Assembly (NCBI GenBank): GCA_030390025.1
Contig: CM059432.1
Location: 98,582,001 to 98,646,000, forward strand
Length of the DNA stretch: 64,000 bases
Reading direction: 5' to 3'
Source of the DNA: Squalus acanthias
Taxonomy: Eukaryota
Shown here: positions 42,166 through 63,968 of the stretch, in pieces
Numbering within the stretch: the stretch's first letter is position 1
How the letters are laid out: the number at the start of each line of letters is the position of its first letter
The notes under the pieces: model-generated
Seen by the model: the letters and a program-made list of their open reading frames with translations, nothing else
What the model was told of the DNA's origin: nothing
Database searches by the model: none
Made by a program: the position numbers and the translations under genes

Positions 42166-42456
42166 CCTTCCTTGGTTCCTGTGATCAGATAGAATGAGGT
42201 AGCCAGCCTCCCAAGAGTCTCTGGCTTTTGTGAAGGGTGAGCGGGTCCCCTGACCTCGCCTCACGTAAGAAGACATGTGCGCTGGATAGACTTTAACTAT
42301 TCCTATTTCTAAAAATCCCATAATTTTACCATTTTCTGTTAAAAAAATTAAACTACAAACTTAACCTGATTTAAAACTATAAACTTACACTTATAAACTT
42401 ATAAACTCATCCTAAACTTAAACTGTACAGCGCCGCCCGTTCCCAGGGCGGCCTAC

Positions 42457-43500
42457 TCAAATTCTGTGAAGGCGGACACAAGCTTTTCCCAACGGTGGGA
42501 GGGCACTGACCCCTTCCTTTGATCTGCTGCAGCCTGTCGCTGCTGCGCTGGGACTGGGATCTCCCTGGGCTGCCTTGACCTTGAACTTGCGCCTGGGGGC
42601 GTACGGGGGACTTACCCACATCTTTCTGGGCTGGGGTGTCCGACCTGACCTACGGAGAACTACCGGGGGCAGGAACTCCAGGACTGACGGACTGGGTTTC
42701 GAGACTTCCTCCGTGGCGACCCGTGGTCCCACCACAGTCGTTGGCTCCGCCTCCCCTGACTCCGCCTCCCTGAACTCGGGATCTGCAGCTTGTGGCACCG
42801 CCCTACTTGGCCCAGTAGGCGGCCCTTCACTCGCAGTCACTACCTCCCTCGAGGGCAAGACGTTCAAGGCGGGCGACTCGGGCTCTGAGGCTTCCATCGC
42901 CACGCCCTGTGGTCCCACCACAGCGGCTGGCTCCGCCTCCCCTAGCTCCGCCCCCCTGCGTTCGGGACCTGCAGCTTCGGCCTCCACCCTGTGTGGATCT
43001 CTATCTGCAGCCCCTGTCTCCCCTATACCTGAATCGGGGGCGACCCTTTCGTCCTCCGATTCCAGCTCCTCTTCGCTTGTGTCACTATCTTGGTCGAGCT
43101 CCTCGAACTCTTCCTCATCTGACTCCCAAACCAAATAAAGGATCCTACATTTTGCTAGGATGTCCTCTCCCCTGATGCATGCTGCTTTGCCTGCCTGTGT
43201 GCCCTGTGGCCCTACCCGGGCCTGCGAGTCCCCACTCGCAGGTTTGGCCCCTGTGGTTGGCCCTTGTGCACCTGGCTTATACAGTTTACACTGATTAAAA
43301 TCCTCATTCTCCCTGCTTCTGGCTACCCTGTAGGCTGCTTTTATCTCTCTAAGCTGCCCTTCTAGCCCATCCATTTTCCCCATTAAACGGGCGTTCTCTT
43401 CCTGCAAGGCCTGCTCTTTTAACCTGGCCTCCTTACAGGAGACCCCCTCCTGTGCGTGTCTTTTAAAAGGACACAGGTAGGCAGGCTGTGCGGGCTCTAG
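42457..43500 (-). CDS. ERV-A readthrough ORF: Pol N-terminal stub + Gag-like coiled coil + integrase C-terminal tail
   Basis: Open and in frame after the gag TGA-CTAG: LEPAQPAYLCP, then EARLKEQ..AAYRVA, then NQCKLYKPGAQG.. homologous to the ERV-B Pol C-terminus. Confidence 0.75.
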   Translation of the reverse strand, partial: LEPAQPAYLCPFKRHAQEGVSCKEARLKEQALQEENARLMGKMDGLEGQLREIKAAYRVARSRENEDFNQCKLYKPGAQGPTTGAKPASGDSQARVGPQGTQAGKAACIRGEDILAKCRILYLVWESDEEEFEELDQDSDTSEEELESEDERVAPDSGIGETGAADRDPHRVEAEAAGPERRGAELGEAEPAAVVGPQGVAMEASEPESPALNVLPSREVVTASEGPPTGPSRAVPQAADPEFREAESGEAEPTTVVGPRVATEEVSKPSPSVLEFLPPVVLRRSGRTPQPRKMWVSPPYAPRRKFKVKAAQGDPSPSAAATGCSRSKEGVSALPPLGKACVRLHRI

Positions 43501-45306
43501 TCATTGGGTACTGGTGAACGGGGCTGCGGCATCTGCGGGGCCGGTAGCGACTGCCACACTTCCCTGCGAAATCATGAGGGTGCGCATGGCTCCCAACATT
43601 GATTCGATCGCATCGGGATGGATAGGTGCACCAGCTCCCCTATCAGAGGCAGGCGCCTGGGCTCGGACTGCGGGATTTTTATCCCTGGACTCCTTCCAAG
43701 GATTCCTGCAGTTCTTGCGCCATTGCCCTGTCTTTCCACATCCGAAACAAGCATTACTGGCCTGTGGGACGCGATTTCCCTCCTGATGCCACTCCTTTTG
43801 AGCCGGGGCTGTGGGCCGCGCCTCATGCAACTTTCCCTTAAGGGGACGTGCTCCCGCACTCCTGGTATTACGGTACCCTACCGTGAGTCGATTTAGGACC
43901 GACTCCTCTGTTGTGGCGGGGTTAGTGGGATCAAACCACGCTTTGGCCTGCTCCCTGACGGCTGGCAAACTGTTGGCTACCACACACCTGAGCCAATGAG
44001 TTAAACCGACACCGTCTATGCGGTGACGCGCTGGCGCGCCTGGGCAGCTACGTCGATATACTAGCCACAGCCTGTCGGCGAAAACCTTCGGGGGTTCTCC
44101 CTCCATCTGCACTGTTTGTCCCAATCTAACGAACGGACCTTCATCGTCCGCTCCCAACACTTCCAGGACCTCGTCCCTCAATTCCCCATAGGTATTATTT
44201 CCCCTCTTGCTCTCGTCTGAGAGACACTGAAGGATCGAGCTGTCTAATGAGAACAACAGCATTTTTGCTTTTTCCCCATCGTCGCAGCCGTTAATGGCTG
44301 CGGTTTGCTCTACATCCCTGAAATGTACGGAAGGGTCGTCTGACTCGGACAGCTTCCGTACGTGACTGATCATAACCCTCAGCTGGTGTGAGCTGTGAGG
44401 CAACACAAGCTGGTTGAGGAGATCCCCCTCTGCCCCATCTGCTCCGTTCGGGCCCCTCTTGATACCCGTGACTGGACACAACGGTCCCGGCTTCACTTCT
44501 ACCTCAGGGGGCTCTTCCTCTACTTCTACCACTTCCTTCCTCACCCAGGTTGCCGAATAGCTGGGTGGCGCGGAGGGCACAGTGGCAAATACCTCCTCTG
44601 TTTTGTTCGGTGGGGATTTCTGAAATTCCCCACCCACCAGCGGCTGGTGTGCTGCCGGGCTGATAAGGCACACCATGCCGTGCGCTTTATTCAGGGCCTC
44701 TTTAAGGTTCCCTATCTCTCTTTGGCAGACGCTGTGATCGGCCCCCTGATGTTTATCCTCGAGGGCCATCTTATATGCCGCCCTAACCCCCGTTAAGCTC
44801 TCTTCCTGGGCTTTTATTTGGGCAGCTAGGCGGGCACATCGTTCCTTTATTCTGCCCTCATTTAACTTTGCCTCAGTGACCTGGCACTCGAGGTAATCTA
44901 TTTTTGCCTCATGGTGGTTGGCGACTAACTGGCGTTCTTGATGCAACGCATTTAAAGACGCGATGAGCTGCTGCCCCCCCGCGACCTTCTCGTCCATTTC
45001 CACCTCTAAACCCTTGATCTGCGCTGCCTGCGCTAAGATGACCTGGTCCAAAAGCTGGACTTGTCTTTTATAGCACATCAGCCAGACCGCTTTCTCTACT
45101 GTTTTTTTATGTTCCTTGCTACCTGTCCACCTCACGGCTGCCTCTAGTGGACGCTTATCCACCAGCAGGTCACTTATCCATTTCTTAGTCAAATTCACTT
45201 TTCCAAACACATAATCTGCTATTCTCTCTTCCATAACATTTCACCCATTCATACCAGGGTCTAACACATTATATTCTCGCTGCCAGTGTCCCTTCGTGGT
45301 CGCCAT
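43501..45306 (-). pseudogene. gag: ERV-A Gag; stop at codon 22, open for 577 aa from 45234
   Basis: Homologous to ERV-B Gag; TGA at 45241-45243 where ERV-B has CGA; zinc knuckle His replaced by Gln (CFGCGKTGQWRKNC); PSAPPSY present. Confidence 0.88.
45288..45305 (-). other. Primer binding site, tRNA-Arg type (ERV-A)
   Basis: TGGCGACCACGAAGGGAC, 5 nt after the 5' LTR; complementary to a vertebrate tRNA-Arg 3' end GTCCCTTCGTGGTCG-CCA (tRNA sequence recalled, not looked up). Confidence 0.85.
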
Positions 45307-45310
45307 TAGC

Positions 45311-46960
45311 TGTAAGGGGTGACCTGCGGCTCTGTGCTTAGCCTGGGTGCTAGTGCGGGGTTAGGCCTTGTTGCCTGTTCTGGTCTCCAGCCAGCCTGAT
45401 AACACTAGACACCTGTGAGTGGTTCGACCCACTCGCCCTTACGGTTCTGACACTGGACTTAGGTGCGAGAGCAATAATGCAGAGAAAGACTCAGGTAGAC
45501 CCGGTTGAATAGTGCGAAATGGAAAATCTTTATTGCATATTATTCAAGATTACGAGATACATGTCATAAGCACAGATTAACGACAGTACAATTTTACACA
45601 CAGTTATGAAACTAATTTTAGGGAAACGAGGAGCGCACGACACATCGTAGAAGGGGACACACATTATAATTATCCTTAAAACTTAAACCCTCCCCTATCA
45701 ATACCTGTCCTAATCTAGATTTGTAGGATCGAGACTCATGCTCACCACTCGTGATAACTCGGAGAATTCCAAAACTCTGCTCGGATGTTTTACCGCAGCA
45801 CCTGACTATCCACGTGTTGATCAGGGGTCTCTGTACCCCACTTGTTTACTCGTTTCTGCTCCGGCTAGCAGGCTGGACCGTCTGCTGTCATGAAGATCTG
45901 TGTTGCCCTTGGAGTTCGGACACCACTCGAAAAAGAGTCTTCCTGTGCCCTACAGCAGTTGTCTGTAGAACTCAAAGAAGGGTCTTCCTAGGCCAGTTGT
46001 GGAGTAGCCGATAAAATTCAAAGAAGTGTTTATTCGACTTACAGGCGCGGTCGGGGCTTACTGACCGTGGCGATGCGTATTGTCGTCTTCTTCTCTTCTC
46101 ATCTCATCTCATCTCATCTCATCTCCTCTCGGGCCTTCAGTTCCAACACCGTTTACCGACTTCTCGGGATGGTGCGCCCGCTTCCAGGCCTCACAGCCCG
46201 GTTCTCCACAGATCTTCGCGGCAAGCCACGAGGTTGTTCCTAGCGGATCAGAGTCCAGAGCCGTCAGGCAAGAGAATAAAAGTTCAGCAGCCTTCCAGCG
46301 AGTCAAAGCAGCAAGAGCAGCAAGCCAAAGATGGACGGTTGTACCTTACAGTTATAGTGCTGTAATTCCTCTTTTCCCGCCCAATCTTAATGTCTATCTT
46401 TTGTCAGGTTTTTGGCGCTCAAACTTCTTGTATGGGGTGATCTCAGTCTTTAATGGGTTTCGGTGATACTTGTAACTGTCTGAGTACCCGTTAATATTTC
46501 TCCCATTGTGGAACCGGCTAGTAGTCTCCCTGGAGGGGTTTTGGGGCTTCCAAATGCTTGCTGTAAGTACCCGCAAACGGCTCTCTCATCGTAGAGTCGT
46601 GGGGATTTTGCATATTAATGTCTTTGGATGGGTCCTTGATCGCTCAGTACAATAGCCCTTGTTTGCACCCGGGAGACCGATTCCAGTATTTATGTTTAAA
46701 ATGCAAACCCATCATGTCTTGTCAATTATCTCAAATGTGCTGAGTCCTGTATGATCTTGCACAAATGTTTATTGGAACGCCATCTTGTCTGCCCACTGAA
46801 AGTCTAGAACTTTCTGCCACGAGGCGTGGTGGCCATTTTACAGGCTGTTTGTGTCCGTTTTGAAACCTGACAGCATTCTGCTGAAATAAAGCTGTTTGTA
46901 CGAAACTTTATGTCTCCTTCTTATTTTTTTTTAAATCGCGTTAATTTTGCGAATTCTACA
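45311..46960 (-). repeat. ERV-A 5' LTR (1650 bp)
   Basis: TGTA..TACA ends; AATAAA on - at 45529-45534; (TCTCA)n tract. Confidence 0.95.
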
Positions 46961-48805: not shown

Positions 48806-49166
48806 GAGGGGGAAAAATTAGGTCGCGCCCCATTTGGGGCGCAAATATCGTCTGGACGCAAATATTAGCGCCTGGCGCTAATTATCGGCACTGACTGGAA
48901 ACTTCACTTTTACCGCCCCGGGAGGTGAGTGGAGCGCTAAATCAGGCGCTGCACACCTGTCTTAAGGCGCAAAGGCCGAGCAGTGAGGCGCTAACTCAGC
49001 GCGCGAGCGCAGCGCAGCTGCTGCCAGTTAGCGAGGGAACACAGACACACTGGCGCCGGCCACTTCTTAAAGCGGGGGGGGCCAACTTGCTCCCCAGCCA
49101 CACCCTGCTCATTGCAGCCTTGAATCTCGGCCTGGAGAGACCTGTGAATCCATTTTGCTGCCAAGG

Positions 49167-51437: not shown

Positions 51438-53032
51438 TGTAAGGGATTCTCTCCTGACCCTGCGTGTCTCGTAGCCTGTGAGATTCACGCGGCTCTGTGC
51501 AGCCTGTATGTCAGTGCGGGTCTAGGCCTGGTCTCCAGCCAGTCTGGGAACACTAGACACCCCTGTGAGTGGTTCGAATCACTCTCCCTTACGGTTCTAG
51601 ACACTGGACTTAGATGCGAGAGCAGTAATGGAGATAAAACTCATGTAGACTTGGTTTGAACGGTACGAAATGGAAAATCTTTATTGCATGATACTTAAAA
51701 TTATGAAATACATGTCATATGCACAGATTAATGACAGTACAATCTTACAAACAGTTATAATCACTCTTAGGGAAACGAGGAACGACCAGCACAACGTAAA
51801 TAGGGCACACATTACAAATATCCTTAATCTTTAAACCCTCCCCTATCAATGTCTATCCTAAACTAGCTTCGTAGGATCTCGAGACTCATGCTCACCACTC
51901 GTAATAACTCGGAGAAATCCCGAATAGCTGATCGGATGTTTTTCACCGCAGCACCCACGTGTTGGTCAGGAGATCTCCTGGTCCCACTTGTTTACTGCTT
52001 TTGCTGCTCGGTCAGTCGGCTGGACCGTCCGCTGTAGTGAAGACCTCTGTTGGTTGGATACAAGGTATGGTGGAGCACCGTTGTCAATATCGCTGATACG
52101 ATGTGTTTGCACAGTCCAGTTATCATCGATGCAATATGTCTTGTTAAAGAAGAAAACTTCCTGTCGAGAAGACTTGGCTGATCGACCTACAGGCGCGGTC
52201 GGGATTTACTGACCGTGGCGATGGATAAGGTCTTCTTCTCTTCTCCTCTCATCTCATCTCATCTCATCTCATCCCGGGCCTTCGGTTCCGCTGCCAGCTA
52301 CCAACATAGGTCTTTGCAACAGTCTTTTACACAGGAGCAGCCACGATGATAACAGCAACAAGCGGCAAGAGTCAAGAACACGAGGCAAGAGTCAAGAGCA
52401 AGAGAGAGAATGGACGGTTTGGGGCCTGCAATTATAGTGCACAGTTCTTCCGTTTCCCGCCCAACTACAATGTCCATTCTTTTGTTTAAGGTTTGGCGCC
52501 CAAAATGTCCTGTATGGGTGATCTCTGTCCTTAATGGGTTTCGGGGCTACTCCTGAATGTTTGAGTACCTGCTAATATTTCTCCCATTGTTAAATCGGTC
52601 GGTGTTCCCCCTGGAGGGGTTTGGGGCTTCCAAGTGTCCTGTATAACTACCTGCTAACGGCTCTCTCATCGTAGAGCCGTTGGGAGTTTACATATTAATG
52701 TCCTTTGGATGGGCCTTTGATGGCTTTCCTTTGTACCTGGGAGACCGATTCCAGTATCGATGTTTATACTGTAAACCCATAATGTCCTGTGTATTGTCTT
52801 CACTGTGCTGAATCGTTATCGATCCTGCAAAAAAAAAATGTTTATTGGAACGCCATCTTGTCTGCCTGTTGAAAAGTCTAGAATGTTCTGTCACGCGGTG
52901 CGGCGGCCATTTTACAGGCTGCTTGTGTCCAATTTAAACCTGACAGCATTCCGCTGAAATAAAAGCTGTTTTGAACGAAACTTTGTGTTTTCTCCTTATT
53001 AAAATGAAATCGCGATAATTGCGAATTCTACA
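51438..53032 (-). repeat. ERV-B 3' LTR (1595 bp)
   Basis: Direct repeat of 62373-63968; I found one substitution and one A-run indel; AATAAA on - at 51680-51685. Confidence 0.97.
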
Positions 53033-53456: not shown

Positions 53457-55808
53457 TTACACTGCGCTCTCATCGTGCACGCGCACGTAACGTTCTCGCC
53501 ACTCTCCCGTGTTCTCATGCTTGGTGAGGCGCTTGCCTCTTTTACAATGTATGAACAAAAGGTATACTACAATAAACACTTGACAGACGACTAAAATGTG
53601 GGAGGCTATTCTGACCCATGAGGGCACTTCAATATTAGTGAACAGGTTCCACCACGGTGGAACCACTATGTCCAAAATGTCTGTTCCAATTTCGACGGTT
53701 TTCTGTTCTAAGGTATAAAAATGCTTTTGTGACACCGCGACGGCTTTCAGAAGTTTGGTTAAATGCTCAGGGAGAGGGGGAATGAGGTATCCAAAATGCG
53801 CGACAAATCGCTGCAAGTCGGTGAAATTCTCTTTTACTGTGAGATGAACAGTGGATGGTTCAGGGATTGGGATAATTCGCTGTTGTGCTACTTGAACTTC
53901 AGCCCTGGGTTTAAAACAGAAACTGCTGTCACTCACCGGACACCGGCTACGGTTTCCATGCTGGTAGTGTTGCGCTGCAGTGGTAACACAATATGTTCCA
54001 CCCCCGATGTATGCTACCTGCGGAGGCACATGATCTTGTGCCATTGCCTCCATGGTGCAATTCATGGACTTGGCGCCAGCCGTTCTGAACCCGCACTGTG
54101 GTGTTAAAAAGGCATTCAAGTGCTGGGGGCACAGTATTATGTGTGCTCCCCTGCCACGACAACCAGAGAGATCTGTACCTGTCATCGTTTGCTCCCAGCG
54201 GATGACGTAAGGTGGAACCGCTGCATAACGAATGTGGGCTCCCCCCTGAATGACACCAATGTTCTCTACCCGATACACCGGGGCGGGCTTTGCTGTGTTG
54301 CCCAAAACCGGCATGCGTAATACTATTCCCATAATAGTATGGTTTGAACGTCCGCAGTCCACGGGGACTGGGTAAGCTTCTGAAGCTAGCCTGAGCTGGC
54401 ACGGACTTAATGCGTTCTGAAAAGGGTGGAGCGCCCGCAGGTGTTTGTTACTTATCCAGGACGGGACCAAACCTTGTTTTAAATCCTCCAAATTACTGCG
54501 GCCCTCGCCCAGTAACCACGCCCCGTAAAGCACGCACACCTCGTTCTGCGCAGCTTGATCGGATGCATTCCGATCTTCCCTGATCAGGGCATTTACCGTA
54601 CGCGCATGTTTCTCCAGCTCTGCTATAATCTCTTTTAAGTGTAGTGTCATGGCTTGGTCCTCGTGCAGACCCGACCCTACCACTTTATTCTCATCTGTAA
54701 GAATATCCTTTAACTGTGTTTTTAAACCATTAATCTGGGTCTGCAGCTCCACACTGTCTAGAGCGTTGACCACAGATGTCCCTGTGTTAAAAGCAGTGAA
54801 CGCATCGTTCACCAAACCCCTTCTTTGCCTCCCTACTTGGTCCAAAACTTCCTGCGGTGCGGTGTATAAACTTGTCTTATCAATTTCTGCAAAATCAAAC
54901 TCGTAAAATTGCCTGAACATCTTGGTCAACAGGACCTGGTACAACTGTTCCGTCTTTTTGGGGCACCACTCTGGTAACCGTACCTCAGTGAGATTTAAAA
55001 TCACCGAGGCCACCGCGTAATGTACCCCCTGAAATAGTATCTGGTCTGTGGGGACCAGTACCAAACCGTTCCCGGGTCCCTTACTAGTTTTAGGGCACCC
55101 TTCTTCCTCAGTTAGAACTACCGGGATCGTGGGCGGGGCTTTGCGTGGGCGCGTAATGAGCTCAGTGGCATTTACTGGGATCGGAGAGTATGGGGCTCCG
55201 CACCCCCTGGTGCTCGCATCCCACCTCATCCCCTGTCCGTTATCCTGCCACTGGTTAATAAAGAATATGGAGATGCCTTTGGGGCAAACGTACTTTGACC
55301 CCCACATACAAACATAAATCCCCTCATCCGGTTCCCACCATTTGTCCCAACAGACTTTCACTTGTCCGTCTGTCCCCGTAATTGTCCGATGGGTATTATT
55401 ACCCAGTCGCTCCCACTCAACCGAAGAGTTCCTCATAGTTTTGCTCAGCTTTCGCAGCCACCACCATCGGCTCAATGGGACATTCCCACTGCAGGTCAAA
55501 CAAATCCGTTTGCCGACGGTGACGCTGATCCTGGGTGCGATGATCCGTACTTTGGGGCACATTAAAGAAGTCTCTTTGTAGGCGAACCCCGATGTGCTGG
55601 AATACTCCGTTGAGTTCGTTCCCAGCCATCCTGGCCACCTTCCCTTGTGGAAATAGGTGCTGGTCCCCTCTGCCTTCCGTCTCCCGGTCCCATCCACCGC
55701 GATGGGGGCCGTGTCCCCGGAACATCCAAACACCACGACATCCTTGGTGTGGCCTCGATAGGCCAATCCACATCCGATTGCCACGAGCAATACTATAAGT
55801 CGTTCCAT
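53457..55808 (-). CDS. env: Envelope glycoprotein, 783 aa: signal peptide, Ig-like domain, class I F-like fusion protein
   Basis: Signal MERLIVLLVAIGCGLA; furin site RQRR at 327-330; fusion peptide and heptad; Cys-rich region; TM ILVVCQVFIVVYLLFI; many NxS/T sequons; YVRV in the tail. Confidence 0.92.
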   Translation of the reverse strand: MERLIVLLVAIGCGLAYRGHTKDVVVFGCSGDTAPIAVDGTGRRKAEGTSTYFHKGRWPGWLGTNSTEYSSTSGFAYKETSLMCPKVRIIAPRISVTVGKRICLTCSGNVPLSRWWWLRKLSKTMRNSSVEWERLGNNTHRTITGTDGQVKVCWDKWWEPDEGIYVCMWGSKYVCPKGISIFFINQWQDNGQGMRWDASTRGCGAPYSPIPVNATELITRPRKAPPTIPVVLTEEEGCPKTSKGPGNGLVLVPTDQILFQGVHYAVASVILNLTEVRLPEWCPKKTEQLYQVLLTKMFRQFYEFDFAEIDKTSLYTAPQEVLDQVGRQRRGLVNDAFTAFNTGTSVVNALDSVELQTQINGLKTQLKDILTDENKVVGSGLHEDQAMTLHLKEIIAELEKHARTVNALIREDRNASDQAAQNEVCVLYGAWLLGEGRSNLEDLKQGLVPSWISNKHLRALHPFQNALSPCQLRLASEAYPVPVDCGRSNHTIMGIVLRMPVLGNTAKPAPVYRVENIGVIQGGAHIRYAAVPPYVIRWEQTMTGTDLSGCRGRGAHIILCPQHLNAFLTPQCGFRTAGAKSMNCTMEAMAQDHVPPQVAYIGGGTYCVTTAAQHYQHGNRSRCPVSDSSFCFKPRAEVQVAQQRIIPIPEPSTVHLTVKENFTDLQRFVAHFGYLIPPLPEHLTKLLKAVAVSQKHFYTLEQKTVEIGTDILDIVVPPWWNLFTNIEVPSWVRIASHILVVCQVFIVVYLLFIHCKRGKRLTKHENTGEWRERYVRVHDESAV

Positions 55809-56092
55809 CCTTCCTTGGTTCCTGTGATCAGATAGAATGAGGTAGCCAGCCTCGCAAAAAGTCTCTGGCTTTTGTGACGGGTGAGCGGGTCCCCTGACCT
55901 CGCCTCACGTAAACTTCAACGTTCGCTAAATAGACTTCCTCTAAACCTAGCCTTAAAACTCCCATCATTTTGTCGTTATCTGTTAAAAACACTACAAACT
56001 TAACCTTATTAAAACTACTTAAAACTTTAAACTAAAACTTAAAACCTTAAACTAATAACTTTACAATGCCGCCCGTTCTCAGGGCGGCCCCT

Positions 56093-59000
56093 TTAAATCC
56101 TGAGAAGGCTGCTGCGAGCTCTTCCCGACGGTGGGAGGGCACTGACCCTTTCCTCTGATCTGCCGCAGCCTGTTACTGCTTCGATGTGGCCTGTCTCTAC
56201 CCGGGTTATCTTAACCTGAAACTTACGCCCTGGGGCAGCCTGTGGACCTGACCACATCTTCCTGGGCTGGGGTACTCTGCTTGACCTACGGGGAATTGCT
56301 ATGGGCGGGGGCTCCGTGACGGACGGACCGGGTCCCGAGACCTTCAACGGGATGACCTGGGGTTCCATCACAGGCGCCAGCCCCGCCTCCGCTGACTCCG
56401 CCTCCCTGACCTCGGGGCTGGCAGTTCGGGGCCCCGCCCTGCTCGGTCCAGCAGGCGGCCCTTCACTCGTGAACTCTGCCTCCCCTGAGGACTGGACGTT
56501 CAAAGCGGGCGGCCACACCTCTGGGAACCACATAGCGGCTGGCCCGGCCTCCTCTAGCTCCTTCCTCCTGTTGTCGGGACCTGCAGCTTGTGTGTCCACC
56601 CCGTATGGATCTCTACCTAGCGGCCCCAATCCTCCCAGACCGTTCCTCAGGAACCACCCGTCATCATCACTATGCTCATCTGCACTATCCTCATCTGACC
56701 AGGGTACCCTGGGGTCCTCGTCATCTAACCCCCAACTCCAGAAAAACGCTGCATGATCGTCCGGGATGTCCCTTCCCCTGATGCAAGCTGCTACGCCTGC
56801 CTGTGTGCCTTGTGGTCCTACCTGGGGCTGTGTTTTCCCATTGGCGGGATTTACCCCTGTAGTTTTCCCTTGCGCACCCGGCTGGTACAGTTTACATTGG
56901 TTTATGTGGAACCACTTAGTGCGCCGAGGTACTTTTACGGCGTAAACCATGGGACTCGCCTTGTCTACAATGTTGTAGGGTCCCATATACAGTGGTTCCA
57001 GACTCCCTACTCTGGCGTAGTTTCTGACCATAACCTGGTCTCCTACTTCCCACTCCCGCGTTTTGCGGGGTTCCAGCAACAAGCGATTGCCCTGATGCTG
57101 CCTTCCCATGTTCCCAGCCGCCTGCTCATAAACTTGCTTCAGGCGCTCCAAGAGAGTTTGGGCGAACTTGTCCCTGCTGATCTCTTGAAGCTGACCCTCA
57201 GTGAGCACCGGGGCTAGCACATGGGTGGGGGTTCGCATGAGCCTCCCAGTCATTACCTCGTGCGGGGAGTACCCCGTACTTTTTGACTGACTGGCCCGGA
57301 CCCCCATGAGGACTAAAGGCAGAACTTCCGCCCATTTTTGGGGCGAGTTCCTAGTCTCTTTCCTCAATTTCTCCTTCAGGGTCCGGTTCATACGTTCAAC
57401 AATCCCGGATGACTGGGGATTGTGTGCTACGTGCCACTTCCCTTCAATGCCCAAAAGCATGAGGGTGTTCTGCATCACCTGGCCGGTGAAATGACTCCCT
57501 TGGTCTGACTCCACAAAACGGGGGAGTCCCCACCGCGAGAACACTTCCCGGACCAAGATTTTTGCTGTACCCAGTGCCGTAGCTGTTCGACAAGGGAAGG
57601 CTTCCACCCACTTGGAAAACACATCCACCAGGACGAGGCAGTACTTATAACCTCCCTGGGTGGTGGGCAGGGGTCCTATATAGTCGATCTGTATCGACTG
57701 CCATGGTCCCTCTACCCTTCTTACGTGTCCCATGGGCACCTTCCTTTTCTGGGGGTCTGGGTTATTTGCAGCGCACACAAGACAGTTTGCACAGAACTCG
57801 CGGACTTGTTCCCTGAGCCCTGGCCACCATCCCGCTTGCTCTACCCGTTGCCAGGTAACCTCGGGCCCGGGGTGCCCTGCCCCTGGTCCCTCGTGAGCCA
57901 ACTGGAGGAATTCCCTCCTGTGCTGCTGCGGCACAACCCACTGCTCCTCGCGGAACAGCATGCCTTCCTTAACTGAGAGGGTTGCCGTACTGTACGGACC
58001 TTCTACCTGCCTCCCCTCAGCAATCGTTTTTAGGACTGCTTTTAGGGCGGGATCCTGGGCTTGGACGGTCTTAAGGTCTAGGGGCAATGCTACCCTGGTG
58101 TTCCCGGTATTCCCGTCCCCGCCTCGGACCGCTGCTATGGGTCCGGTTCTATAGGGGTTCCAGAAAGTACCGTCGTGGGCACCCTCCCTGGCTAGCGCAT
58201 CCGCCTGCCGGTTGCCCTCCCCACGGGGCTCTGTGGAGGAGTGAGCTTTCACCTTATGGATGAAAATCTCCCCTTCCTCCCCTACTGCTGCTGCTAAGAT
58301 CTTCTCCAGCAAGGGCTTTACCGTTAAAGGTCGCCCGTCCGCGGAGGTGTATCCACGGCGGGACCAAATGGCCAGGTATTCCGTACACGAATTGCAGGTG
58401 AACATACTGTCCGAGCAAATCGTGTATGGGGTTGGGAAAATGTCTGGGTGGGTTACCACGTACACCACGGCAGACAGCTCAGCCTGCTGCGCGCTCATGG
58501 TGCTAGGGAGCTTGATCGCCAGGGCAAGGTCTGCCGCAGGGTCATAAACTCCACACCCTGTGAGTCGCTCGCCAGCAGATACTGTGCTAGACCCATCAAC
58601 ATAAATCTCGCGCCCAGTGGGATGTATCCCGGCCCGTAAACCTATGTTGACGTCCCACACCCCCTCCACCGAACACCGGTGGGCTGTACCGGGGTATACC
58701 AAATTGGCCGCAAGCCTGGGCTCGCAAAGACCTTTTACTCTGATGTCCAACTGGGAGAGAAGAAGGGTCCAACGCGCAATGCGTGCGCTGCTTACGGTCC
58801 CGTCTTTAATCCTCCCATCCAGAAGCATCTTAGTTGGTGTGTGATGTGTGAGGAGAGTGATGGGAGAGAGCCCTGTGAAGATCGCTGATCTTTTCACAGC
58901 CCAATGCGTGGCTAAAAGGTGCCTTTCGCAATTGGAAAAACTTCTCTCCACATCCGTTAATACCCTGGATGAATAGACAACCGGCCTCAGCTTGCCGTGA

Positions 59001-60556
59001 CGCTCTTGGAGCAGTACGGCGCTTAAGCTGTCTCCGCTGGCAGCTACCTCCAGGAAAAACTCCTTCCCCCCATCTATGGCCCCTAAGGCTGGCGCGGTCT
59101 GCAGATCCCTTTTTAACTTCTCGAAGGCTGCTTGGCAGCCCTCGTCCCAAAGCCACTCTACCCCCTTATGGAGGAGTCGGAGGAGCGGCGCCGCTGTGGC
59201 CGCATAATCCTCGATAAAATCCCTGCAGTAACCGGTCAGTCCCAAGAAGGACCTCACACCCCTTACGTTGTTGGGAATCGGTAATTCTTGCACCGACTCC
59301 CTCCTGGCTTTGTCTATAGCTCTTTCCCCAGCGCGTAGGGTCAGTCCCAGGAATTTTACTTCCTGCTGACCGATACGTGCTTTCTTTGGGTTTACTTTAA
59401 AACCCTTTCTCGCTAACAGCTCCAATAACTCGTCCAGTAGTGGTCCGTGCTCCTCCCTTGAGTCCGTAAATAGGAGCAAATCATCCACATACTGTACTAT
59501 CTGATTGGGCTGACTGAACTCCTTTAAACTTCCTGCCATACACTGGTGAAAAATACTGGGGCTATTGTGGAAACCCTGTGGCAAGCAGTTCCACGTGTAC
59601 TGTTGCCCTTTAAACGTAAAGGCAAACTTGTACTGGTCCTCTCGCCGCAGCGGGATGGACCAAAAACCGTTCGAGATATCCAGCACCGTGAACGTGGTCG
59701 CGGACGCTGGGATGCTCCCTATTAGGTCAGCAACTGCTGCTACTGTGGGCGCGCAGGCGGGGATGTTACTGTTAAGGACTCTGTAGTCCACCGTGGCTCT
59801 CCACGAATTATCCGGCTTCCTAACCGGCCATAATGGGGAGTTCACGTGTGTGGCTATCGGCCTCAACACGCCCTGCTGCACCAAGGAAGACATTGCTGCC
59901 TCCATATCGGGTTCTGCTTCTTTGGGGAAGTTATACTGCTTTTGGGGTCGGGTCATGGGGTCCCCATCTACGCTGACCTCAAACCCGACCACCCTCCCAC
60001 AATCGTGCTTGTGGGTTGCAAACGCGTGCATATTATCTGTCACGTACGTTTGCATGTCCGTTGGGACATCTGCGACCATAAGCCTGAGGTCGTAGCCTCC
60101 GGATGGCTGTACGGTACACAGGACCCCTGTTTCTTCCTCCCCTTGAATCACCATTACCTCGCCTTTTTCACCTTTAGCCCCCCAGAGACAGTGATTTCTG
60201 AGGTCCACGAGGATCCCGTGTCCCGCTAGCAGATCGGACCCGAGAATACCTCTTCCACCCCCCTTTTGCCATGCCATCAGTATACACTTCCACTTAAGGC
60301 GAAGTGTCCCTAAACGAATGGATAGCGGGAGGGAAAACGTGCCAGCCTGTTCTTTCCCTGTGAACCCTGCTAGCGTGAATGGGACCTTGGTAGATAGCGG
60401 CGAGTCAAAAGGGTCATCTGTATGGATTATGGTGCAAGAAGCTCCCGTGTCCAACAAATAACTGCCCTTTTGTTTCTCTACCTCCATCTCCACCACAGGT
60501 CGCCTCCACGCATCATAGCTGAGCGGACACAGGTAGACGGGCTGTGCTGGTTCTAG
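56093..60556 (-). CDS. pol: Pol (PR-RT-tether-RNase H-IN plus long C-terminal tail), in frame with gag
   Basis: LLDTGAS; LPQGFHNSP; YVDD; degenerate RH (LEVAAS..VVYSSR); RH (YVDGS, AELSA, SDS, GNRQAD); HHCC, QIDYIGP, SDQGSHF, VERMNRTLK, GPY. Confidence 0.96.
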   Translation of the reverse strand, partial: LEPAQPVYLCPLSYDAWRRPVVEMEVEKQKGSYLLDTGASCTIIHTDDPFDSPLSTKVPFTLAGFTGKEQAGTFSLPLSIRLGTLRLKWKCILMAWQKGGGRGILGSDLLAGHGILVDLRNHCLWGAKGEKGEVMVIQGEEETGVLCTVQPSGGYDLRLMVADVPTDMQTYVTDNMHAFATHKHDCGRVVGFEVSVDGDPMTRPQKQYNFPKEAEPDMEAAMSSLVQQGVLRPIATHVNSPLWPVRKPDNSWRATVDYRVLNSNIPACAPTVAAVADLIGSIPASATTFTVLDISNGFWSIPLRREDQYKFAFTFKGQQYTWNCLPQGFHNSPSIFHQCMAGSLKEFSQPNQIVQYVDDLLLFTDSREEHGPLLDELLELLARKGFKVNPKKARIGQQEVKFLGLTLRAGERAIDKARRESVQELPIPNNVRGVRSFLGLTGYCRDFIEDYAATAAPLLRLLHKGVEWLWDEGCQAAFEKLKRDLQTAPALGAIDGGKEFFLEVAASGDSLSAVLLQERHGKLRPVVYSSRVLTDVERSFSNCERHLLATHWAVKRSAIFTGLSPITLLTHHTPTKMLLDGRIKDGTVSSARIARWTLLLSQLDIRVKGLCEPRLAANLVYPGTAHRCSVEGVWDVNIGLRAGIHPTGREIYVDGSSTVSAGERLTGCGVYDPAADLALAIKLPSTMSAQQAELSAVVYVVTHPDIFPTPYTICSDSMFTCNSCTEYLAIWSRRGYTSADGRPLTVKPLLEKILAAAVGEEGEIFIHKVKAHSSTEPRGEGNRQADALAREGAHDGTFWNPYRTGPIAAVRGGDGNTGNTRVALPLDLKTVQAQDPALKAVLKTIAEGRQVEGPYSTATLSVKEGMLFREEQWVVPQQHRREFLQLAHEGPGAGHPGPEVTWQRVEQAGWWPGLREQVREFCANCLVCAANNPDPQKRKVPMGHVRRVEGPWQSIQIDYIGPLPTTQGGYKYCLVLVDVFSKWVEAFPCRTATALGTAKILVREVFSRWGLPRFVESDQGSHFTGQVMQNTLMLLGIEGKWHVAHNPQSSGIVERMNRTLKEKLRKETRNSPQKWAEVLPLVLMGVRASQSKSTGYSPHEVMTGRLMRTPTHVLAPVLTEGQLQEISRDKFAQTLLERLKQVYEQAAGNMGRQHQGNRLLLEPRKTREWEVGDQVMVRNYARVGSLEPLYMGPYNIVDKASPMVYAVKVPRRTKWFHINQCKLYQPGAQGKTTGVNPANGKTQPQVGPQGTQAGVAACIRGRDIPDDHAAFFWSWGLDDEDPRVPWSDEDSADEHSDDDGWFLRNGLGGLGPLGRDPYGVDTQAAGPDNRRKELEEAGPAAMWFPEVWPPALNVQSSGEAEFTSEGPPAGPSRAGPRTASPEVREAESAEAGLAPVMEPQVIPLKVSGPGPSVTEPPPIAIPRRSSRVPQPRKMWSGPQAAPGRKFQVKITRVETGHIEAVTGCGRSEERVSALPPSGRARSSLLRI

Positions 60557-62368
60557 TCATGGGGCACTATTAGACGGTCCTGCGGCACCTACGGGGCCGG
60601 TTGCGACCGCCACCTGTCCACGCGCATTCAAAACCATCTTGCGCATGACTCCTAACACTGCTTCGAGGTCGTCGGGAGGGGTGGGTGCCTTGGCTTCCTT
60701 AGCCGGGACAGGCGCCTGGGTTCGGACCGCGGGATTTTTATCCTTGGAATCCTTCCAAGGGTTCCTGCAGTGCTTGCGCCAGTGCCCTGTCTTCCCACAC
60801 CCGTAACAGGCATTACTTGCCTGTGGGGCGCGATTACCCTCCTGATGCCACTCTCTTTGAGCCGGGGCTGCGGGTCGTACCTCATGTACTCTTCCCTTAA
60901 AGGGACGTGTCGTCATACCCCTTATGTTACGATAACCTAACGTGAGTCGATTCAAGACCGACTCTTCCGTAAGGTTGAGGTCATTGGGATCGAACCAGGC
61001 TTTTGCCTGCTCTCTAACGGCTGGTAAACTGTTGGCTATGATGCACCTAAGCCAATGAATTAAAGCGGCGCCTTCCACATCTTCGCGCTCGGGCGCACCC
61101 AGACAGCTGCGCTCATATACGGGCCACAGCCTGTCGGCAAAAACCTTCGGGGGTTCTCCCTCCATCTGCACTGTCTGTCCTACTCTAGCAAACGGACCTC
61201 CGTCGTTCGCCCCCACTACTTCTAGGACCTCATTTTTCAATTCCTCATAACTTTTATTACCCCTCTTGCTATCGCCTGAGAGACACTGAAGGACCGAGCT
61301 ATCTAACGAGAACAGCAGCATTTTTGCTGTCTCCCCATCATCGCAGCCGTTGATGGCTGCGGCTTGCTCAACTTCCCTGAAATGTACGGAAGGGTCGTCT
61401 ATCTCGGTCAGCTTCCTTACGTGGTTTATCATGGCTCTCAGCTGATGTGAACTGTGAGGCAACACCAGCTGTCCGAGGAGATCCCCCGGTTCTTCCCCAC
61501 CGTTTCTGCTTGGGCCCCTTTTAATACCCGTTACTGGATACAACGATCCCTTTTCTACCTCCTTTTCAACGGGCTCTTTTGCTTCTTCCGTTGCTTCCTC
61601 CCTAACCCAGGTTTCTGAATAGCTGGGTGGCGCGGAGGGCGCAGTGGCTACTACTTCTTCTGCTTTACTTGGTGGGGAATTTCTAAATCTCTCATTTACT
61701 AGCGGCTGGCGTGCCGACGGATTAATAAGGCACACCATGCCGTTCGCATTATTCACGGCCTTTTTGAGGCTCTCTATCTCTTTTTCGCAGGCGCTATGGT
61801 CGGCTCCCTGAAACTTATCCTCAAGGGCCAACTTATACGCCGACCTAACCCCCATTAAGCTCTCTTCTTGAGTTCTTATCTGGGCAGCTTGACGGTTACA
61901 TCTTTCCTTCATCCTACTCTCGTTTAATTTTGCTTCAGTGATCTGGCACTCGAGATACTCTACCCTTGTTTTAAGGTAACTGGAGACTTCCTGGCTTTCC
62001 TGGCGTAACTCATGTAAACTCTTAATGAGCGCCTCCCCTCCAGAAACCTTCTCCTCCATTTCCTCCTCTAACTGCTTGATTCGAGCGGTTAGCGCTGTAT
62101 TGGTCTGGTTTGAAATCTGAACCTGCCTTTTGTAGCACATAAGCCAGACTGCTTTCTCAACTGCCTTTTTATGCTCCTTACTATCAGTCCACCTTTCAGC
62201 TGCCTCTAGTGGGCTCTTATCCGCTAACAATTCGCTTATCCACTTTTTCGTTAGATTAACCTTTCCAAATACGTAATCCGCTATCTTTTCCTGCATCACA
62301 TTTCGTACAGTCATTCCAAAATCTAACACACTACCCTCTCGCTGCCAGTGTCCTGCCGCGGTCGCCAT
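60557..62368 (-). CDS. gag: Gag, 603 aa (coiled coil, PSAPPSY, capsid-like region, one CCHC knuckle)
   Basis: First ORF after the LTR; CYGCGKTGHWRKHC; ends in TGA-CTAG. Confidence 0.93.
   Translation of the reverse strand: MATAAGHWQREGSVLDFGMTVRNVMQEKIADYVFGKVNLTKKWISELLADKSPLEAAERWTDSKEHKKAVEKAVWLMCYKRQVQISNQTNTALTARIKQLEEEMEEKVSGGEALIKSLHELRQESQEVSSYLKTRVEYLECQITEAKLNESRMKERCNRQAAQIRTQEESLMGVRSAYKLALEDKFQGADHSACEKEIESLKKAVNNANGMVCLINPSARQPLVNERFRNSPPSKAEEVVATAPSAPPSYSETWVREEATEEAKEPVEKEVEKGSLYPVTGIKRGPSRNGGEEPGDLLGQLVLPHSSHQLRAMINHVRKLTEIDDPSVHFREVEQAAAINGCDDGETAKMLLFSLDSSVLQCLSGDSKRGNKSYEELKNEVLEVVGANDGGPFARVGQTVQMEGEPPKVFADRLWPVYERSCLGAPEREDVEGAALIHWLRCIIANSLPAVREQAKAWFDPNDLNLTEESVLNRLTLGYRNIRGMTTRPFKGRVHEVRPAAPAQREWHQEGNRAPQASNACYGCGKTGHWRKHCRNPWKDSKDKNPAVRTQAPVPAKEAKAPTPPDDLEAVLGVMRKMVLNARGQVAVATGPVGAAGPSNSAP
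62350..62367 (-). other. Primer binding site, tRNA-Arg type (ERV-B)
   Basis: TGGCGACCGCGGCAGGAC, complementary to a tRNA-Arg(TCG) 3' end GTCCTGCCGCGGTCG-CCA (tRNA sequence recalled, not looked up). Confidence 0.85.
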
Positions 62369-62372
62369 TTTC

Positions 62373-63968
62373 TGTAAGGGATTCTCTCCTGACCCTGCGT
62401 GTCTCGTAGCCTGTGAGATTCACGCGGCTCTGTGCAGCCTGTATGTCAGTGCGGGTCTAGGCCTGGTCTCCAGCCAGTCTGGGAACACTAGACACCCCTG
62501 TGAGTGGTTCGAATCACTCTCCCTTACGGTTCTAGACACTGGACTTAGATGCGAGAGCAGTAATGGAGATAAAACTCATGTAGACTTGGTTTGAACGGTA
62601 CGAAATGGAAAATCTTTATTGCATGATACTTAAAATTATGAAATACATGTCATATGCACAGATTAATGACAGTACAATCTTACAAACAGTTATAATCACT
62701 CTTAGGGAAACGAGGAACGACCAGCACAACGTAAATAGGGCACACATTACAAATATCCTTAATCTTTAAACCCTCCCCTATCAATGTCTATCCTAAACTA
62801 GCTTCGTAGGATCTCGAGACTCATGCTCACCACTCGTAATAACTCGGAGAAATCCCGAATAGCTGATCGGATGTTTTTCACCGCAGCACCCACGTGTTGG
62901 TCAGGAGATCTCCTGGTCCCACTTGTTTACTGCTTTTGCTGCTCGGTCAGTCAGCTGGACCGTCCGCTGTAGTGAAGACCTCTGTTGGTTGGATACAAGG
63001 TATGGTGGAGCACCGTTGTCAATATCGCTGATACGATGTGTTTGCACAGTCCAGTTATCATCGATGCAATATGTCTTGTTAAAGAAGAAAACTTCCTGTC
63101 GAGAAGACTTGGCTGATCGACCTACAGGCGCGGTCGGGATTTACTGACCGTGGCGATGGATAAGGTCTTCTTCTCTTCTCCTCTCATCTCATCTCATCTC
63201 ATCTCATCCCGGGCCTTCGGTTCCGCTGCCAGCTACCAACATAGGTCTTTGCAACAGTCTTTTACACAGGAGCAGCCACGATGATAACAGCAACAAGCGG
63301 CAAGAGTCAAGAACACGAGGCAAGAGTCAAGAGCAAGAGAGAGAATGGACGGTTTGGGGCCTGCAATTATAGTGCACAGTTCTTCCGTTTCCCGCCCAAC
63401 TACAATGTCCATTCTTTTGTTTAAGGTTTGGCGCCCAAAATGTCCTGTATGGGTGATCTCTGTCCTTAATGGGTTTCGGGGCTACTCCTGAATGTTTGAG
63501 TACCTGCTAATATTTCTCCCATTGTTAAATCGGTCGGTGTTCCCCCTGGAGGGGTTTGGGGCTTCCAAGTGTCCTGTATAACTACCTGCTAACGGCTCTC
63601 TCATCGTAGAGCCGTTGGGAGTTTACATATTAATGTCCTTTGGATGGGCCTTTGATGGCTTTCCTTTGTACCTGGGAGACCGATTCCAGTATCGATGTTT
63701 ATACTGTAAACCCATAATGTCCTGTGTATTGTCTTCACTGTGCTGAATCGTTATCGATCCTGCAAAAAAAAAAATGTTTATTGGAACGCCATCTTGTCTG
63801 CCTGTTGAAAAGTCTAGAATGTTCTGTCACGCGGTGCGGCGGCCATTTTACAGGCTGCTTGTGTCCAATTTAAACCTGACAGCATTCCGCTGAAATAAAA
63901 GCTGTTTTGAACGAAACTTTGTGTTTTCTCCTTATTAAAATGAAATCGCGATAATTGCGAATTCTACA
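62373..63968 (-). repeat. ERV-B 5' LTR (1596 bp)
   Basis: TGTA..TACA ends, followed by the TSD CCTC. Confidence 0.97.
63367..63434 (-). promoter_or_regulatory. Candidate LTR core promoter: TATAA plus two E2F-type sites / GC box
   Basis: TATAA (63367-63371, - strand), TTTCCCGC (63388-63395), TTTGGCGC (63427-63434); same arrangement in the ERV-A LTR. Confidence 0.5.

What the first reader, a model, noticed from the sequence alone, without database searches (positions are those of the whole stretch)
60525..60559. Gag-Pol by UGA-CUAG stop-codon readthrough with a conserved 3' hairpin
Seen: gag and pol share a frame separated by a single TGA followed by CTAG in both proviruses (60557-60559; 43501-43503). 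Nine nt downstream, a GCACAG-9nt-CTGTGT stem is conserved while loop bases vary. Knowledge: UGA-CUA(G) is a leaky context in alphaviruses and vertebrate readthrough genes. Gamma/epsilon retroviruses use UAG readthrough and foamy viruses use a spliced pol mRNA. Inference: a distinct recoding signal for this lineage.
Basis: partly seen in the sequence, partly recalled or inferred. Interest (0 to 1): 0.7.

Follow-up and report, generated by a model that had tools for sequence, protein, structure and literature searches.

The report
Leaky UGA stop joining retroviral gag-pol
A young endogenous retrovirus, probably of a cartilaginous fish, most likely makes its enzymes by letting ribosomes sometimes read through a known leaky stop signal (UGA-CUAG); the small hairpin proposed beside the stop is not supported.

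Summary
The sequence is as described, on the minus strand. In provirus A a single TGA-CTAG separates in-frame gag and a complete pol. Provirus B has the same junction, but most of its pol is gone. Readthrough is likely (about 0.8, untested). The first 11 codons after the stop are conserved as protein between A and B (pS 0.44, pN 0.04). Protease residues upstream of the first Met are conserved in distant relatives. No slippery site was found. The 6-bp hairpin is not supported: z about 0, pairing probability 0.00 in longer contexts, and 17% of synonymous recodings keep it. A different stem (nt +20-30 with +44-55) folds in both copies but is unproven. The element is not a lokiretrovirus by RT, though it has a similar F-like Env. 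All 7 split gag/pol junctions I could read in published lokiretrovirus sequences also have in-frame TGA-CTA(A/G), which that paper does not mention. Precedents exist: TGA-CT in fission-yeast Tj1/Tosmo, and UGA in other contexts in XtERV-S, SSSV and ZFERV. Verdict: a new member of a known kind, apparently unreported for vertebrate retroviruses.

The parts
62373..63968 (-). 5' LTR of provirus A (1596 nt, TG...CA)
   Evidence: 1 mismatch and 1 gap against the 3' LTR; 4-bp target duplication GAGG
60557..62419 (-). gag ORF of A (stop to stop, 620 aa): coiled-coil-like N-terminal part (by eye), capsid-like middle, one CCHC knuckle
   Evidence: (Atlas features 0.93-0.95 to Retrotrans_gag/Ty3 capsid clusters, low shared counts); no Pfam hit
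60557..60559 (-). gag stop TGA, the only stop in the gag-pol frame
60553..60556 (-). CTAG 3' context (type II leaky motif UGA-CUAG)
60524..60556 (-). first 11 codons after the stop, conserved as protein; inferred spacer and protease N-terminal cleavage region
   Evidence: pS 0.44, pN 0.04; Fisher p 0.013 on rounded site counts
60490..60550 (-). alternative extended stem-loop in A (core: nt +20-30 pair with +44-54); candidate only
   Evidence: pair probability 0.91-0.97 in four contexts of 80 nt or more, 0.17 in the 60-nt context; some variants keep it, two break it
60519..60520 (-). acceptor-like AG after a pyrimidine-rich stretch (13 of 18); basis of the splicing rival
   Evidence: crude scan
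60485..60487 (-). Met24, first in-frame ATG of pol, 12 residues before the protease catalytic Asp36
56093..60556 (-). pol ORF of A, 1487 codons: PR, RT (YVDD), tether, RNase H, integrase, SH3, acidic Pro-rich tail
53457..55904 (-). env ORF of A (815 codons stop to stop), RQRR site, F-like fusion subunit; acceptor-like AG at 55822 before its ATG
51438..53032 (-). 3' LTR of provirus A
45311..46960 (-). 5' LTR of provirus B
   Evidence: 15 mismatches and 25 gap columns against the 3' LTR; target duplication ATGC
43501..45240 (-). gag ORF of B ending in TGA 43503-43501
43497..43500 (-). CTAG context in B
43446..43491 (-). B copy of the 6-bp hairpin (43491-43471) and of the alternative stem (43481-43446)
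   Evidence: alternative stem probability 0.16-0.92 by context
42457..43500 (-). 347-codon open frame after the stop in B: pol start, a short stretch weakly like the Gag coiled coil, then the post-integrase tail; PR, RT, RH and IN absent
39814..42360 (-). env of B, in pieces (frame change near its 5' end; interruption between 41653 and 41577)
37057..38681 (-). 3' LTR of provirus B

Best explanation
Programmed stop-codon readthrough of Beier-Grimm type II. Most ribosomes on the unspliced genomic RNA stop at the gag UGA and release Gag. Because CUAG follows, a near-cognate tRNA is accepted in a few percent of cases, and the ribosome continues in frame to make Gag-Pol. The protease then frees itself at a site about 9-11 codons past the stop. 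The primary context is the main signal. Any RNA-structure stimulator is more likely the longer stem (+20-30 with +44-55, odds about 0.25) than the 6-bp hairpin (under 0.1). Shown: single in-frame stop, its context, protein-level conservation after it. Inferred: readthrough itself, its level, the cleavage site, any structural stimulation.
For: One stop between two long ORFs in one frame in a provirus with near-identical LTRs. No slippery heptamer in 60450-60900, and the other frame printed across the junction has many stops. Codons 1-11 after the stop have ordinary synonymous divergence (pS 0.44; gag 0.45) but pN 0.04 (gag 0.15; last 60 gag codons 0.20-0.29), so they were selected as protein. 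Residues 9-23, upstream of Met24, align with distant Pols (P0009 from residue 9, 35%; P0015 from 9; P0247 from 11). UGA-CUAG gave 1.3-6.7% readthrough in all 17 human contexts tested in reporters, and up to 17% in others (PMC5868278 passages); a structure is only conditionally needed for UGACUA (PMC13517186). In 4 runs from 4 organisms none of the 40 variant rows shown falls in 60549-60560, and contigs of divergent copies begin matching at 60560-60561 in 3 runs (weak). The same in-frame TGA-CTA(A/G) stands at 7 of 7 readable split junctions of published lokiretroviruses. The in-frame stop of Tj1 is reported essential for transposition.
Against: No expression or translation data. Met24 has a strong context and is kept in P0007 and, by eye, in one divergent loose end. 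An acceptor-like AG lies at 60519, and the TGAC of the stop resembles a branch point about 38 nt upstream of it (branch consensus recalled). In Candida Tca2, UGA-flanking sequence did not direct readthrough in a reporter and hid a promoter (PMC2194720 abstract). The invariance is weak: 13 rows are hidden and about 1 position in 10 varies, so a 12-nt gap has a chance of roughly 0.3. The selection test rests on two copies and 11 codons. The lokiretrovirus evidence comes from published consensus sequences read by eye.
Confidence: 0.8

Rival explanations
1. One reading: readthrough needs, or is raised by, the GCACAG/CUGUGU hairpin 9 nt after the stop.
For: Arms identical in A and B, position like known stimulators. 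It is the best fold of the isolated 40-mer and the joint fold of the aligned first 56 nt. The one listed variant inside the stem (60545) keeps a G-U pair.
Against: z 0.01 and -0.84. Probability 0.00 in all longer contexts; 17% of synonymous recodings keep all six pairs and 62% keep five. No change on both sides of a pair. Joint-fold energy -5.65 is matched or beaten by 60 of 89 gag and 90 of 115 env windows.
Confidence: 0.07
2. Readthrough is raised by a longer stem-loop: nt +20-30 pair with +44-55 around a variable loop, extended in A by +7-15 with +59-67, loosely like alphavirus elements. This is a sub-case of the best explanation.
For: Minimum-energy fold in both copies at 77 nt. Probability 0.91-0.97 in A in four longer contexts; z -2.0 for +6-68; only 2% of synonymous recodings keep all ten pairs. 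A/B identity is 10 of 11 in the 5' arm, 4 of 13 in the loop and 9 of 14 in the 3' arm, and B turns several G-U pairs into Watson-Crick pairs. Variants 60509, 60503, 60498, 60545 and 60548 keep pairing.
Against: Found after the fact. Unstable in B (0.16-0.92 by context; z -0.2 to -1.7), and z is +0.68 for A 1-60. Variant 60504 breaks a core pair and is common (11% of depth in X3, 69% in X11); 60496 breaks an outer pair. One divergent loose end does not keep the inner pairs (by eye). Homology of B beyond +32 is uncertain.
Confidence: 0.25
3. Foamy-like: pol is made from its own spliced mRNA or internal start (acceptor at 60519 or near the stop, initiation at Met24 or an upstream exon); TGA-CTAG is just the gag stop.
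For: Acceptor-like AG at 60519 and Met24 in a good context. Met kept in P0007. RT scores almost as well against foamy RT (221 bits) as against MLV RT (241 bits). Some relatives (P0017, P0019, P0021, P0022) share a Met about 31 residues before the catalytic Asp.
Against: A Met24 start, or the 60519 acceptor, would remove residues conserved in distant Pols and, from recalled protease structure, the dimer-interface strand. It leaves the protein-level conservation of codons 1-11 unexplained. The Met is not kept in P0009 or P0015. AGs close enough to keep these codons have poor tracts (8-10 of 18). Spumavirus pol lies in a different frame from gag (PMC8278194). It does not explain the choice of a rare leaky context.
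Confidence: 0.11
4. Non-canonical bypass as in Tca2 (junction promoter, reinitiation, or distant elements).
For: Tca2 precedent with a UGA junction (abstract).
Against: Here the context is one that works autonomously in vertebrate cells; no usable ATG lies before the protease core.
Confidence: 0.05
5. The TGA is a nonsense mutation in a once fused gag-pol ORF, copied passively.
For: Three published lokiretroviruses are annotated as fused Smc-Gag-Pol ORFs (Oja, Sri, Xla), so fusion occurs in relatives.
Against: Same stop and context in two families with gag dS 0.69; no variant row at the stop in four organisms; it sits exactly at the gag/protease border of a very young element with otherwise open frames.
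Confidence: 0.02

Closest known systems
Fission-yeast Ty3/gypsy elements Tj1, Tcry1, Tosmo1-3 (bioRxiv 10.1101/2022.12.06.519325, passages)
   Same: In-frame gag-TGA-CT(A/G)-pol; authors infer readthrough from the leaky context
   Different: Env-less fungal retrotransposons with a conserved GAA before the stop; here a vertebrate env-bearing element with CCA or CAA before the stop
Gammaretrovirus (MoMLV) gag-pol readthrough (PMC13517186, PMC8310308; sections and passages)
   Same: One in-frame stop between gag and pro-pol, near the protease N-terminus
   Different: UAG-G (type III), weak without an H-type pseudoknot; here UGA-CUAG (type II), with no supported structure
Alphavirus nsP3-nsP4 and vertebrate cellular UGA-CUA(G) readthrough
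   Same: Identical stop context; the codons after the stop encode a protease cleavage site in alphaviruses
   Different: Not retroelements; alphavirus stems span 126-177 nt with conserved synonymous sites, whereas synonymous sites here diverge normally
XtERV-S, SSSV, ZFERV, RMEV (PMC8278194; PMC13517186)
   Same: Fish or amphibian retroviruses with in-frame UGA between gag and pol, readthrough inferred
   Different: Contexts listed are UGAAGA, UGACGA, UGAAGU; the XtERV-S context was not seen; none of the four unclassified retroviruses in the review has UGACUA
Lokiretroviruses (PMC7947760: parts 1-2 of 4 of the text, term searches, supplement passages)
   Same: Dual RNase H, F-like Env, NYNRIN/CGIN1-like annotation of relatives, and (seen here) in-frame TGA-CTA(A/G) junctions
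   Different: RT only 34% identical to a Loki-type Pol (P0035) and not grouped with it; no long PR-RT spacer; different protease start; Gag has a CCHC knuckle

Membership tests
Type II (UGA-CUA) stop-codon readthrough | UGA followed by CUA(G) | tested here: met
Type II (UGA-CUA) stop-codon readthrough | Long in-frame ORF after the stop, under protein-level selection | tested here: met
   (two copies, 11 codons)
Type II (UGA-CUA) stop-codon readthrough | Measured readthrough above background or a fusion peptide | not testable with these tools
   needs reporter, ribosome profiling or mass spectrometry
Type II (UGA-CUA) stop-codon readthrough | 3' stimulatory structure (optional for UGACUA) | tested here: inconclusive
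   6-bp hairpin fails; longer stem has mixed support
Gammaretroviral type III readthrough | UAG-G stop context | tested here: not met
Gammaretroviral type III readthrough | H-type pseudoknot starting at +12 | not tested
   the folding used cannot form pseudoknots; no pseudoknot search was run
Retrovirus-type provirus (ERV) | LTR-gag-pol-env-LTR, TG...CA ends, target duplication | tested here: met
Retrovirus-type provirus (ERV) | PR-RT-tether-RNase H-IN order; RT closer to retroviruses than to Ty3 | tested here: met
   (MLV 241, foamy 221, Ty3 147 bits)
Lokiretrovirus | RT inside the Loki clade | tested here: not met
   (quick tree; careful search unfinished): window RT lies in a 50-row clade (SH-aLRT 99) that excludes P0035; P0035 judged Loki-type by eye against the supplement; one Loki row only
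Lokiretrovirus | Env related to Mononegavirales F (PF00523) | tested here: inconclusive
   Atlas features 0.93, 205 shared; no Pfam HMM hit; no PDB sequence hit under E 1; not folded
Lokiretrovirus | Dual RNase H (tether plus RH) | tested here: met
Lokiretrovirus | Integrase grouped with CGIN1/NYNRIN | not tested
   only database names of PR-RT hits ('NYNRIN-like'); no integrase tree
Spumaretrovirus expression mode | pol in a different frame with its own start | tested here: not met
   same frame; first Met lies inside the protease
Spumaretrovirus expression mode | Spliced pol mRNA | not testable with these tools
   no run on record as RNA holds the element

The most novel reading that the evidence does not exclude
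UGA-CUA readthrough is an overlooked, shared Gag-Pol strategy of two deep F-Env-bearing lineages, this chondrichthyan clade and the teleost lokiretroviruses. It could be the ancestral mode at the base of retroviruses, later replaced by UAG plus pseudoknot, frameshifting or splicing. In this clade it is tuned by a variable-loop stem, and a pol-less family (B) that is shared by several host organisms keeps the signal to make a Gag fusion with the acidic post-integrase tail.
Probability: 0.15. Interest if true: 0.7.

Novelty: new member of a known kind. Interest (0 to 1): 0.45.

Why it matters
Retroviral readthrough has been validated only for gammaretroviral UAG plus pseudoknot (PMC13517186). 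A type II UGA-CUAG junction would add a second signal class to vertebrate retroviruses. It would also fix annotation: these pol genes are now called from downstream or arbitrary starts that clip the protease. The match in lokiretroviruses, the reported sister group of retroviruses, makes the question of how the first retroviruses set their Gag to Pol ratio testable by a simple genome survey and a reporter. The mechanism itself is familiar, which limits the surprise.

Tried and rejected
No whole genome is held. Rfam: 0 matches in the window. Related-locus scans found nothing: viral contigs with three queries and metagenomes. A junction motif scan gave 62 metagenome loci, 0 of 62 related by tblastn. 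No RNA holder listed. The one run guessed to be RNA (X14) showed no joint in 60280-60800, which says nothing on splicing; the two joints listed are in other runs, at low depth. The profile-free HMMER search added relatives but no DNA context, so junctions of the frog, coelacanth and turtle relatives were not seen. The Odin paper's 10 supplementary files had 0 hits for the four terms. Frameshifting rejected (no slippery heptamer, same frame). Lokiretrovirus membership first assumed, then rejected. The careful tree did not finish; the quick tree was used. Papers searched by term without useful result: PMC5210030, PMC9447858, PMC12440569, bioRxiv 2021.11.23.469661 and 2024.03.25.586437. Earlier-findings look-ups were empty. 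No structure prediction, covariance model or complex prediction was run.
Full report
OBSERVATION. Both sites lie on the minus strand. Provirus A runs from 63968 to 51438. Its LTRs differ by 1 mismatch and 1 gap in 1596 nt, end in TG...CA and are flanked by a 4-bp duplication, so it is very young. Gag (620 codons stop to stop) and pol (1487 codons) share a frame, and the only stop between them is TGA 60559-60557 followed by CTAG. Pol has PR, RT, a tether, RNase H and integrase. Env follows in another frame. Provirus B (46960-37057) has the same TGA-CTAG at 43503-43497, but PR, RT, RH and IN are absent. After the stop a 347-codon frame carries the first pol codons, a short stretch weakly like Gag's coiled coil (31% over 51 aa) and the post-integrase tail.

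WHAT THE ELEMENT IS. Env relatives were found only in a skate and a sawshark among named records (3 hits), so the host is probably a cartilaginous fish (inference). The nearest named Pols are 'NYNRIN-like' proteins of frogs and coelacanth at 44-45%. Env residues 270-790 resemble paramyxovirus-type F proteins by language-model features (0.93), with no HMM support. That recalls lokiretroviruses (PMC7947760; I saw parts 1-2 of 4 of the text, term searches, and supplement passages). The element is not one by RT. A Loki-type Pol among the hits (P0035, matched by eye to the supplement) is 34% identical and lies outside the 50-row clade holding the window RT in a quick tree of 64 rows (careful search unfinished, no named reference viruses). 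Loki Pols also have a long PR-RT spacer and a different protease start. Against solved structures the RT scores 241 bits with MLV, 221 with foamy virus and 147 with Ty3. I file it as an unclassified, deep-branching ERV.

IS THE STOP READ THROUGH? Four lines support it. First, there is no alternative geometry: same frame, no slippery heptamer in 60450-60900. Second, the 11 codons after the stop diverge normally at synonymous sites between A and B (pS 0.44; gag 0.45) but hardly at others (pN 0.04; gag 0.15; last 60 gag codons 0.20-0.29; Fisher p 0.013 on rounded counts). They were selected as protein. Third, the first in-frame Met is residue 24, only 12 before the catalytic Asp, and residues 9-23 align with distant Pols; by recalled protease structure a start at Met24 would drop the dimer-interface strand. 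Fourth, the context is a known autonomous leak. All 17 human UGA-CUAG contexts tested gave 1.3-6.7% (PMC5868278 passages), and a structure is only conditionally needed (PMC13517186 section 2.5). Only 9 of 2259 TGA words in the window are followed by CTAG. Contigs from 4 runs of 4 organisms show no variant row in 60549-60560 among 40 rows shown (13 hidden), and divergent copies start to match at 60560-60561 in 3 runs. This last point is weak, since about a tenth of positions vary.

AGAINST. No RNA or protein data could be had. Met24 has a good context and is kept in the closest relative, P0007. An acceptor-like AG lies at 60519. Tca2 shows that a UGA junction can fail in a reporter and hide a promoter (PMC2194720, abstract only). 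I put readthrough at about 0.8 and a spliced or internally started pol at about 0.11.

THE HAIRPIN. It exists on paper but is not more than chance. Energy is -5.8 (z 0.01) and -6.3 (z -0.84); 83 of 111 40-nt pol windows fold as well; 17% of synonymous recodings keep all six pairs and 62% keep five; pair probability falls from 0.94-0.97 at 40 nt to 0.00 in four longer contexts in both copies. The joint A/B fold is matched or beaten by 60 of 89 gag and 90 of 115 env windows. The one variant listed in the stem keeps a wobble pair, which is compatible with it but expected for an A-to-G change. A different stem competes for the same 3' arm: nt +20-30 pair with +44-55 in the 77-nt folds of both copies. 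In A it has probability 0.91-0.97 in four longer contexts and 0.17 at 60 nt, z -2.0 for +6-68, and 2% of recodings keep its ten pairs. A/B identity is 10 of 11, 4 of 13 and 9 of 14 in arm, loop and arm. Five listed variants keep its pairs and two break them, one commonly (60504). It is unstable in B and was found after the fact, so it is a lead (about 0.25). Pseudoknots were not searched.

WIDER PATTERN. In the supplement of PMC7947760 I saw 18 of the 24 entries by name (the file is cut in storage; the rest may bear on this). Seven show a split gag/pol junction, and all seven have TGA-CTA in frame with the protease: Bsp, Dcl and Lro followed by A; Ofa, Cne, Pyo and Sau followed by G. Frames were read by eye. 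Four were first met by searching for the motif; Bsp, Dcl and Lro were reached through gag ends or pol starts, and 4 of 4 labelled gag ends were TGA in an unbiased search. For Bsp the authors' pol annotation begins in another frame. Three entries are fused Smc-Gag-Pol ORFs (Oja, Sri, Xla), Tfu has an ambiguous residue at the site, Aro, Ape and Lch begin within pol, and Ame, Bpe, Lca and Rca were not resolved. The main text has 0 hits for readthrough, stop codon, UGA, suppression or frameshift; so has the Odin paper.

WHAT IS KNOWN. In-frame TGA-CT(A/G) with inferred readthrough is published for fission-yeast Tj1, Tcry1 and Tosmo1-3 (passages; this lead came from earlier finding e1-7527795, whose own diatom claim I did not check). 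In-frame UGA is published for XtERV-S and for SSSV, ZFERV and RMEV with other contexts. The 2026 review lists UGACUA for alphaviruses and a triatovirus, not for retroviruses (sections 2.5, 3.3.2, 4.2.4, part of 2.4, and passages seen). Searches for 'UGA CUAG' + readthrough + retrovirus and loki + retrovirus + gag + readthrough gave 0 papers; one search gave only XtERV-S; the top 20 of 133 showed no retroelement case by title. The library lacks most subscription papers, and bioRxiv supplements are closed, so absence from print is not established.

VERDICT. It works like type II UGA-CUA readthrough and meets the sequence criteria; the functional criterion is untested. It is a new member of a known kind, apparently unreported for vertebrate retroviruses, and shared with lokiretroviruses. 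The hairpin in the title should be dropped. Interest 0.45.

Noticed in passing
window 43446-43470 and runs X11, X19, X14 (loose ends at 60525): The sequence that replaces pol after the junction in B also appears in contigs of three other organisms, so B is a spread pol-less family, not a one-off deletion. Its frame after the stop stays open for 347 codons, but the tail is nearly neutral between A and B (dN/dS 0.86).
   Followed up: partly
window 56093-56900: Pol ends in an acidic, Pro-rich tail of about 260 residues after the integrase, with internal repeats; kept in pol-less B.
   Followed up: partly
window 55300-55570 (env residues 112-205): Weak likeness to Ig V domains (E about 1); a frog relative's gene model (P0010) also ends in an Ig-like stretch by eye. 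Possibly an Ig-fold surface subunit on an F-like fusion subunit.
   Followed up: no
window 62350-62370 and 45290-45310: Primer-binding-site-like sequence 2-5 nt after the 5' LTR; in B it looks like a tRNA-Arg site (label recalled, not tested). An ATG in the gag frame overlaps it in A.
   Followed up: no
window 63165-63224 and the other three LTRs: LTRs are long (about 1.6 kb) and carry a (CTCAT)n microsatellite.
   Followed up: no
window 49071-51047: Two plus-strand ORFs between the proviruses: a Myb/SANT-like protein and a 352-codon ORF without Pfam hit that stops just short of provirus A; arrangement recalls a Harbinger-type transposon.
   Followed up: partly
window 32643-34905 and 2106-2987: Fragments of non-LTR retrotransposons (endonuclease and RT hits).
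   Followed up: no
PMC7947760 supplement, Loki-Cne junction: By eye, a perfect 6-bp stem begins 7 nt after the stop and its loop could pair with a 6-nt stretch further on (possible pseudoknot); not computed.
   Followed up: no
P0017, P0019, P0021, P0022: A sister group of Pols shares a Met about 31 residues before the protease Asp, which may mark an independent pol start in a neighbouring clade.
   Followed up: no
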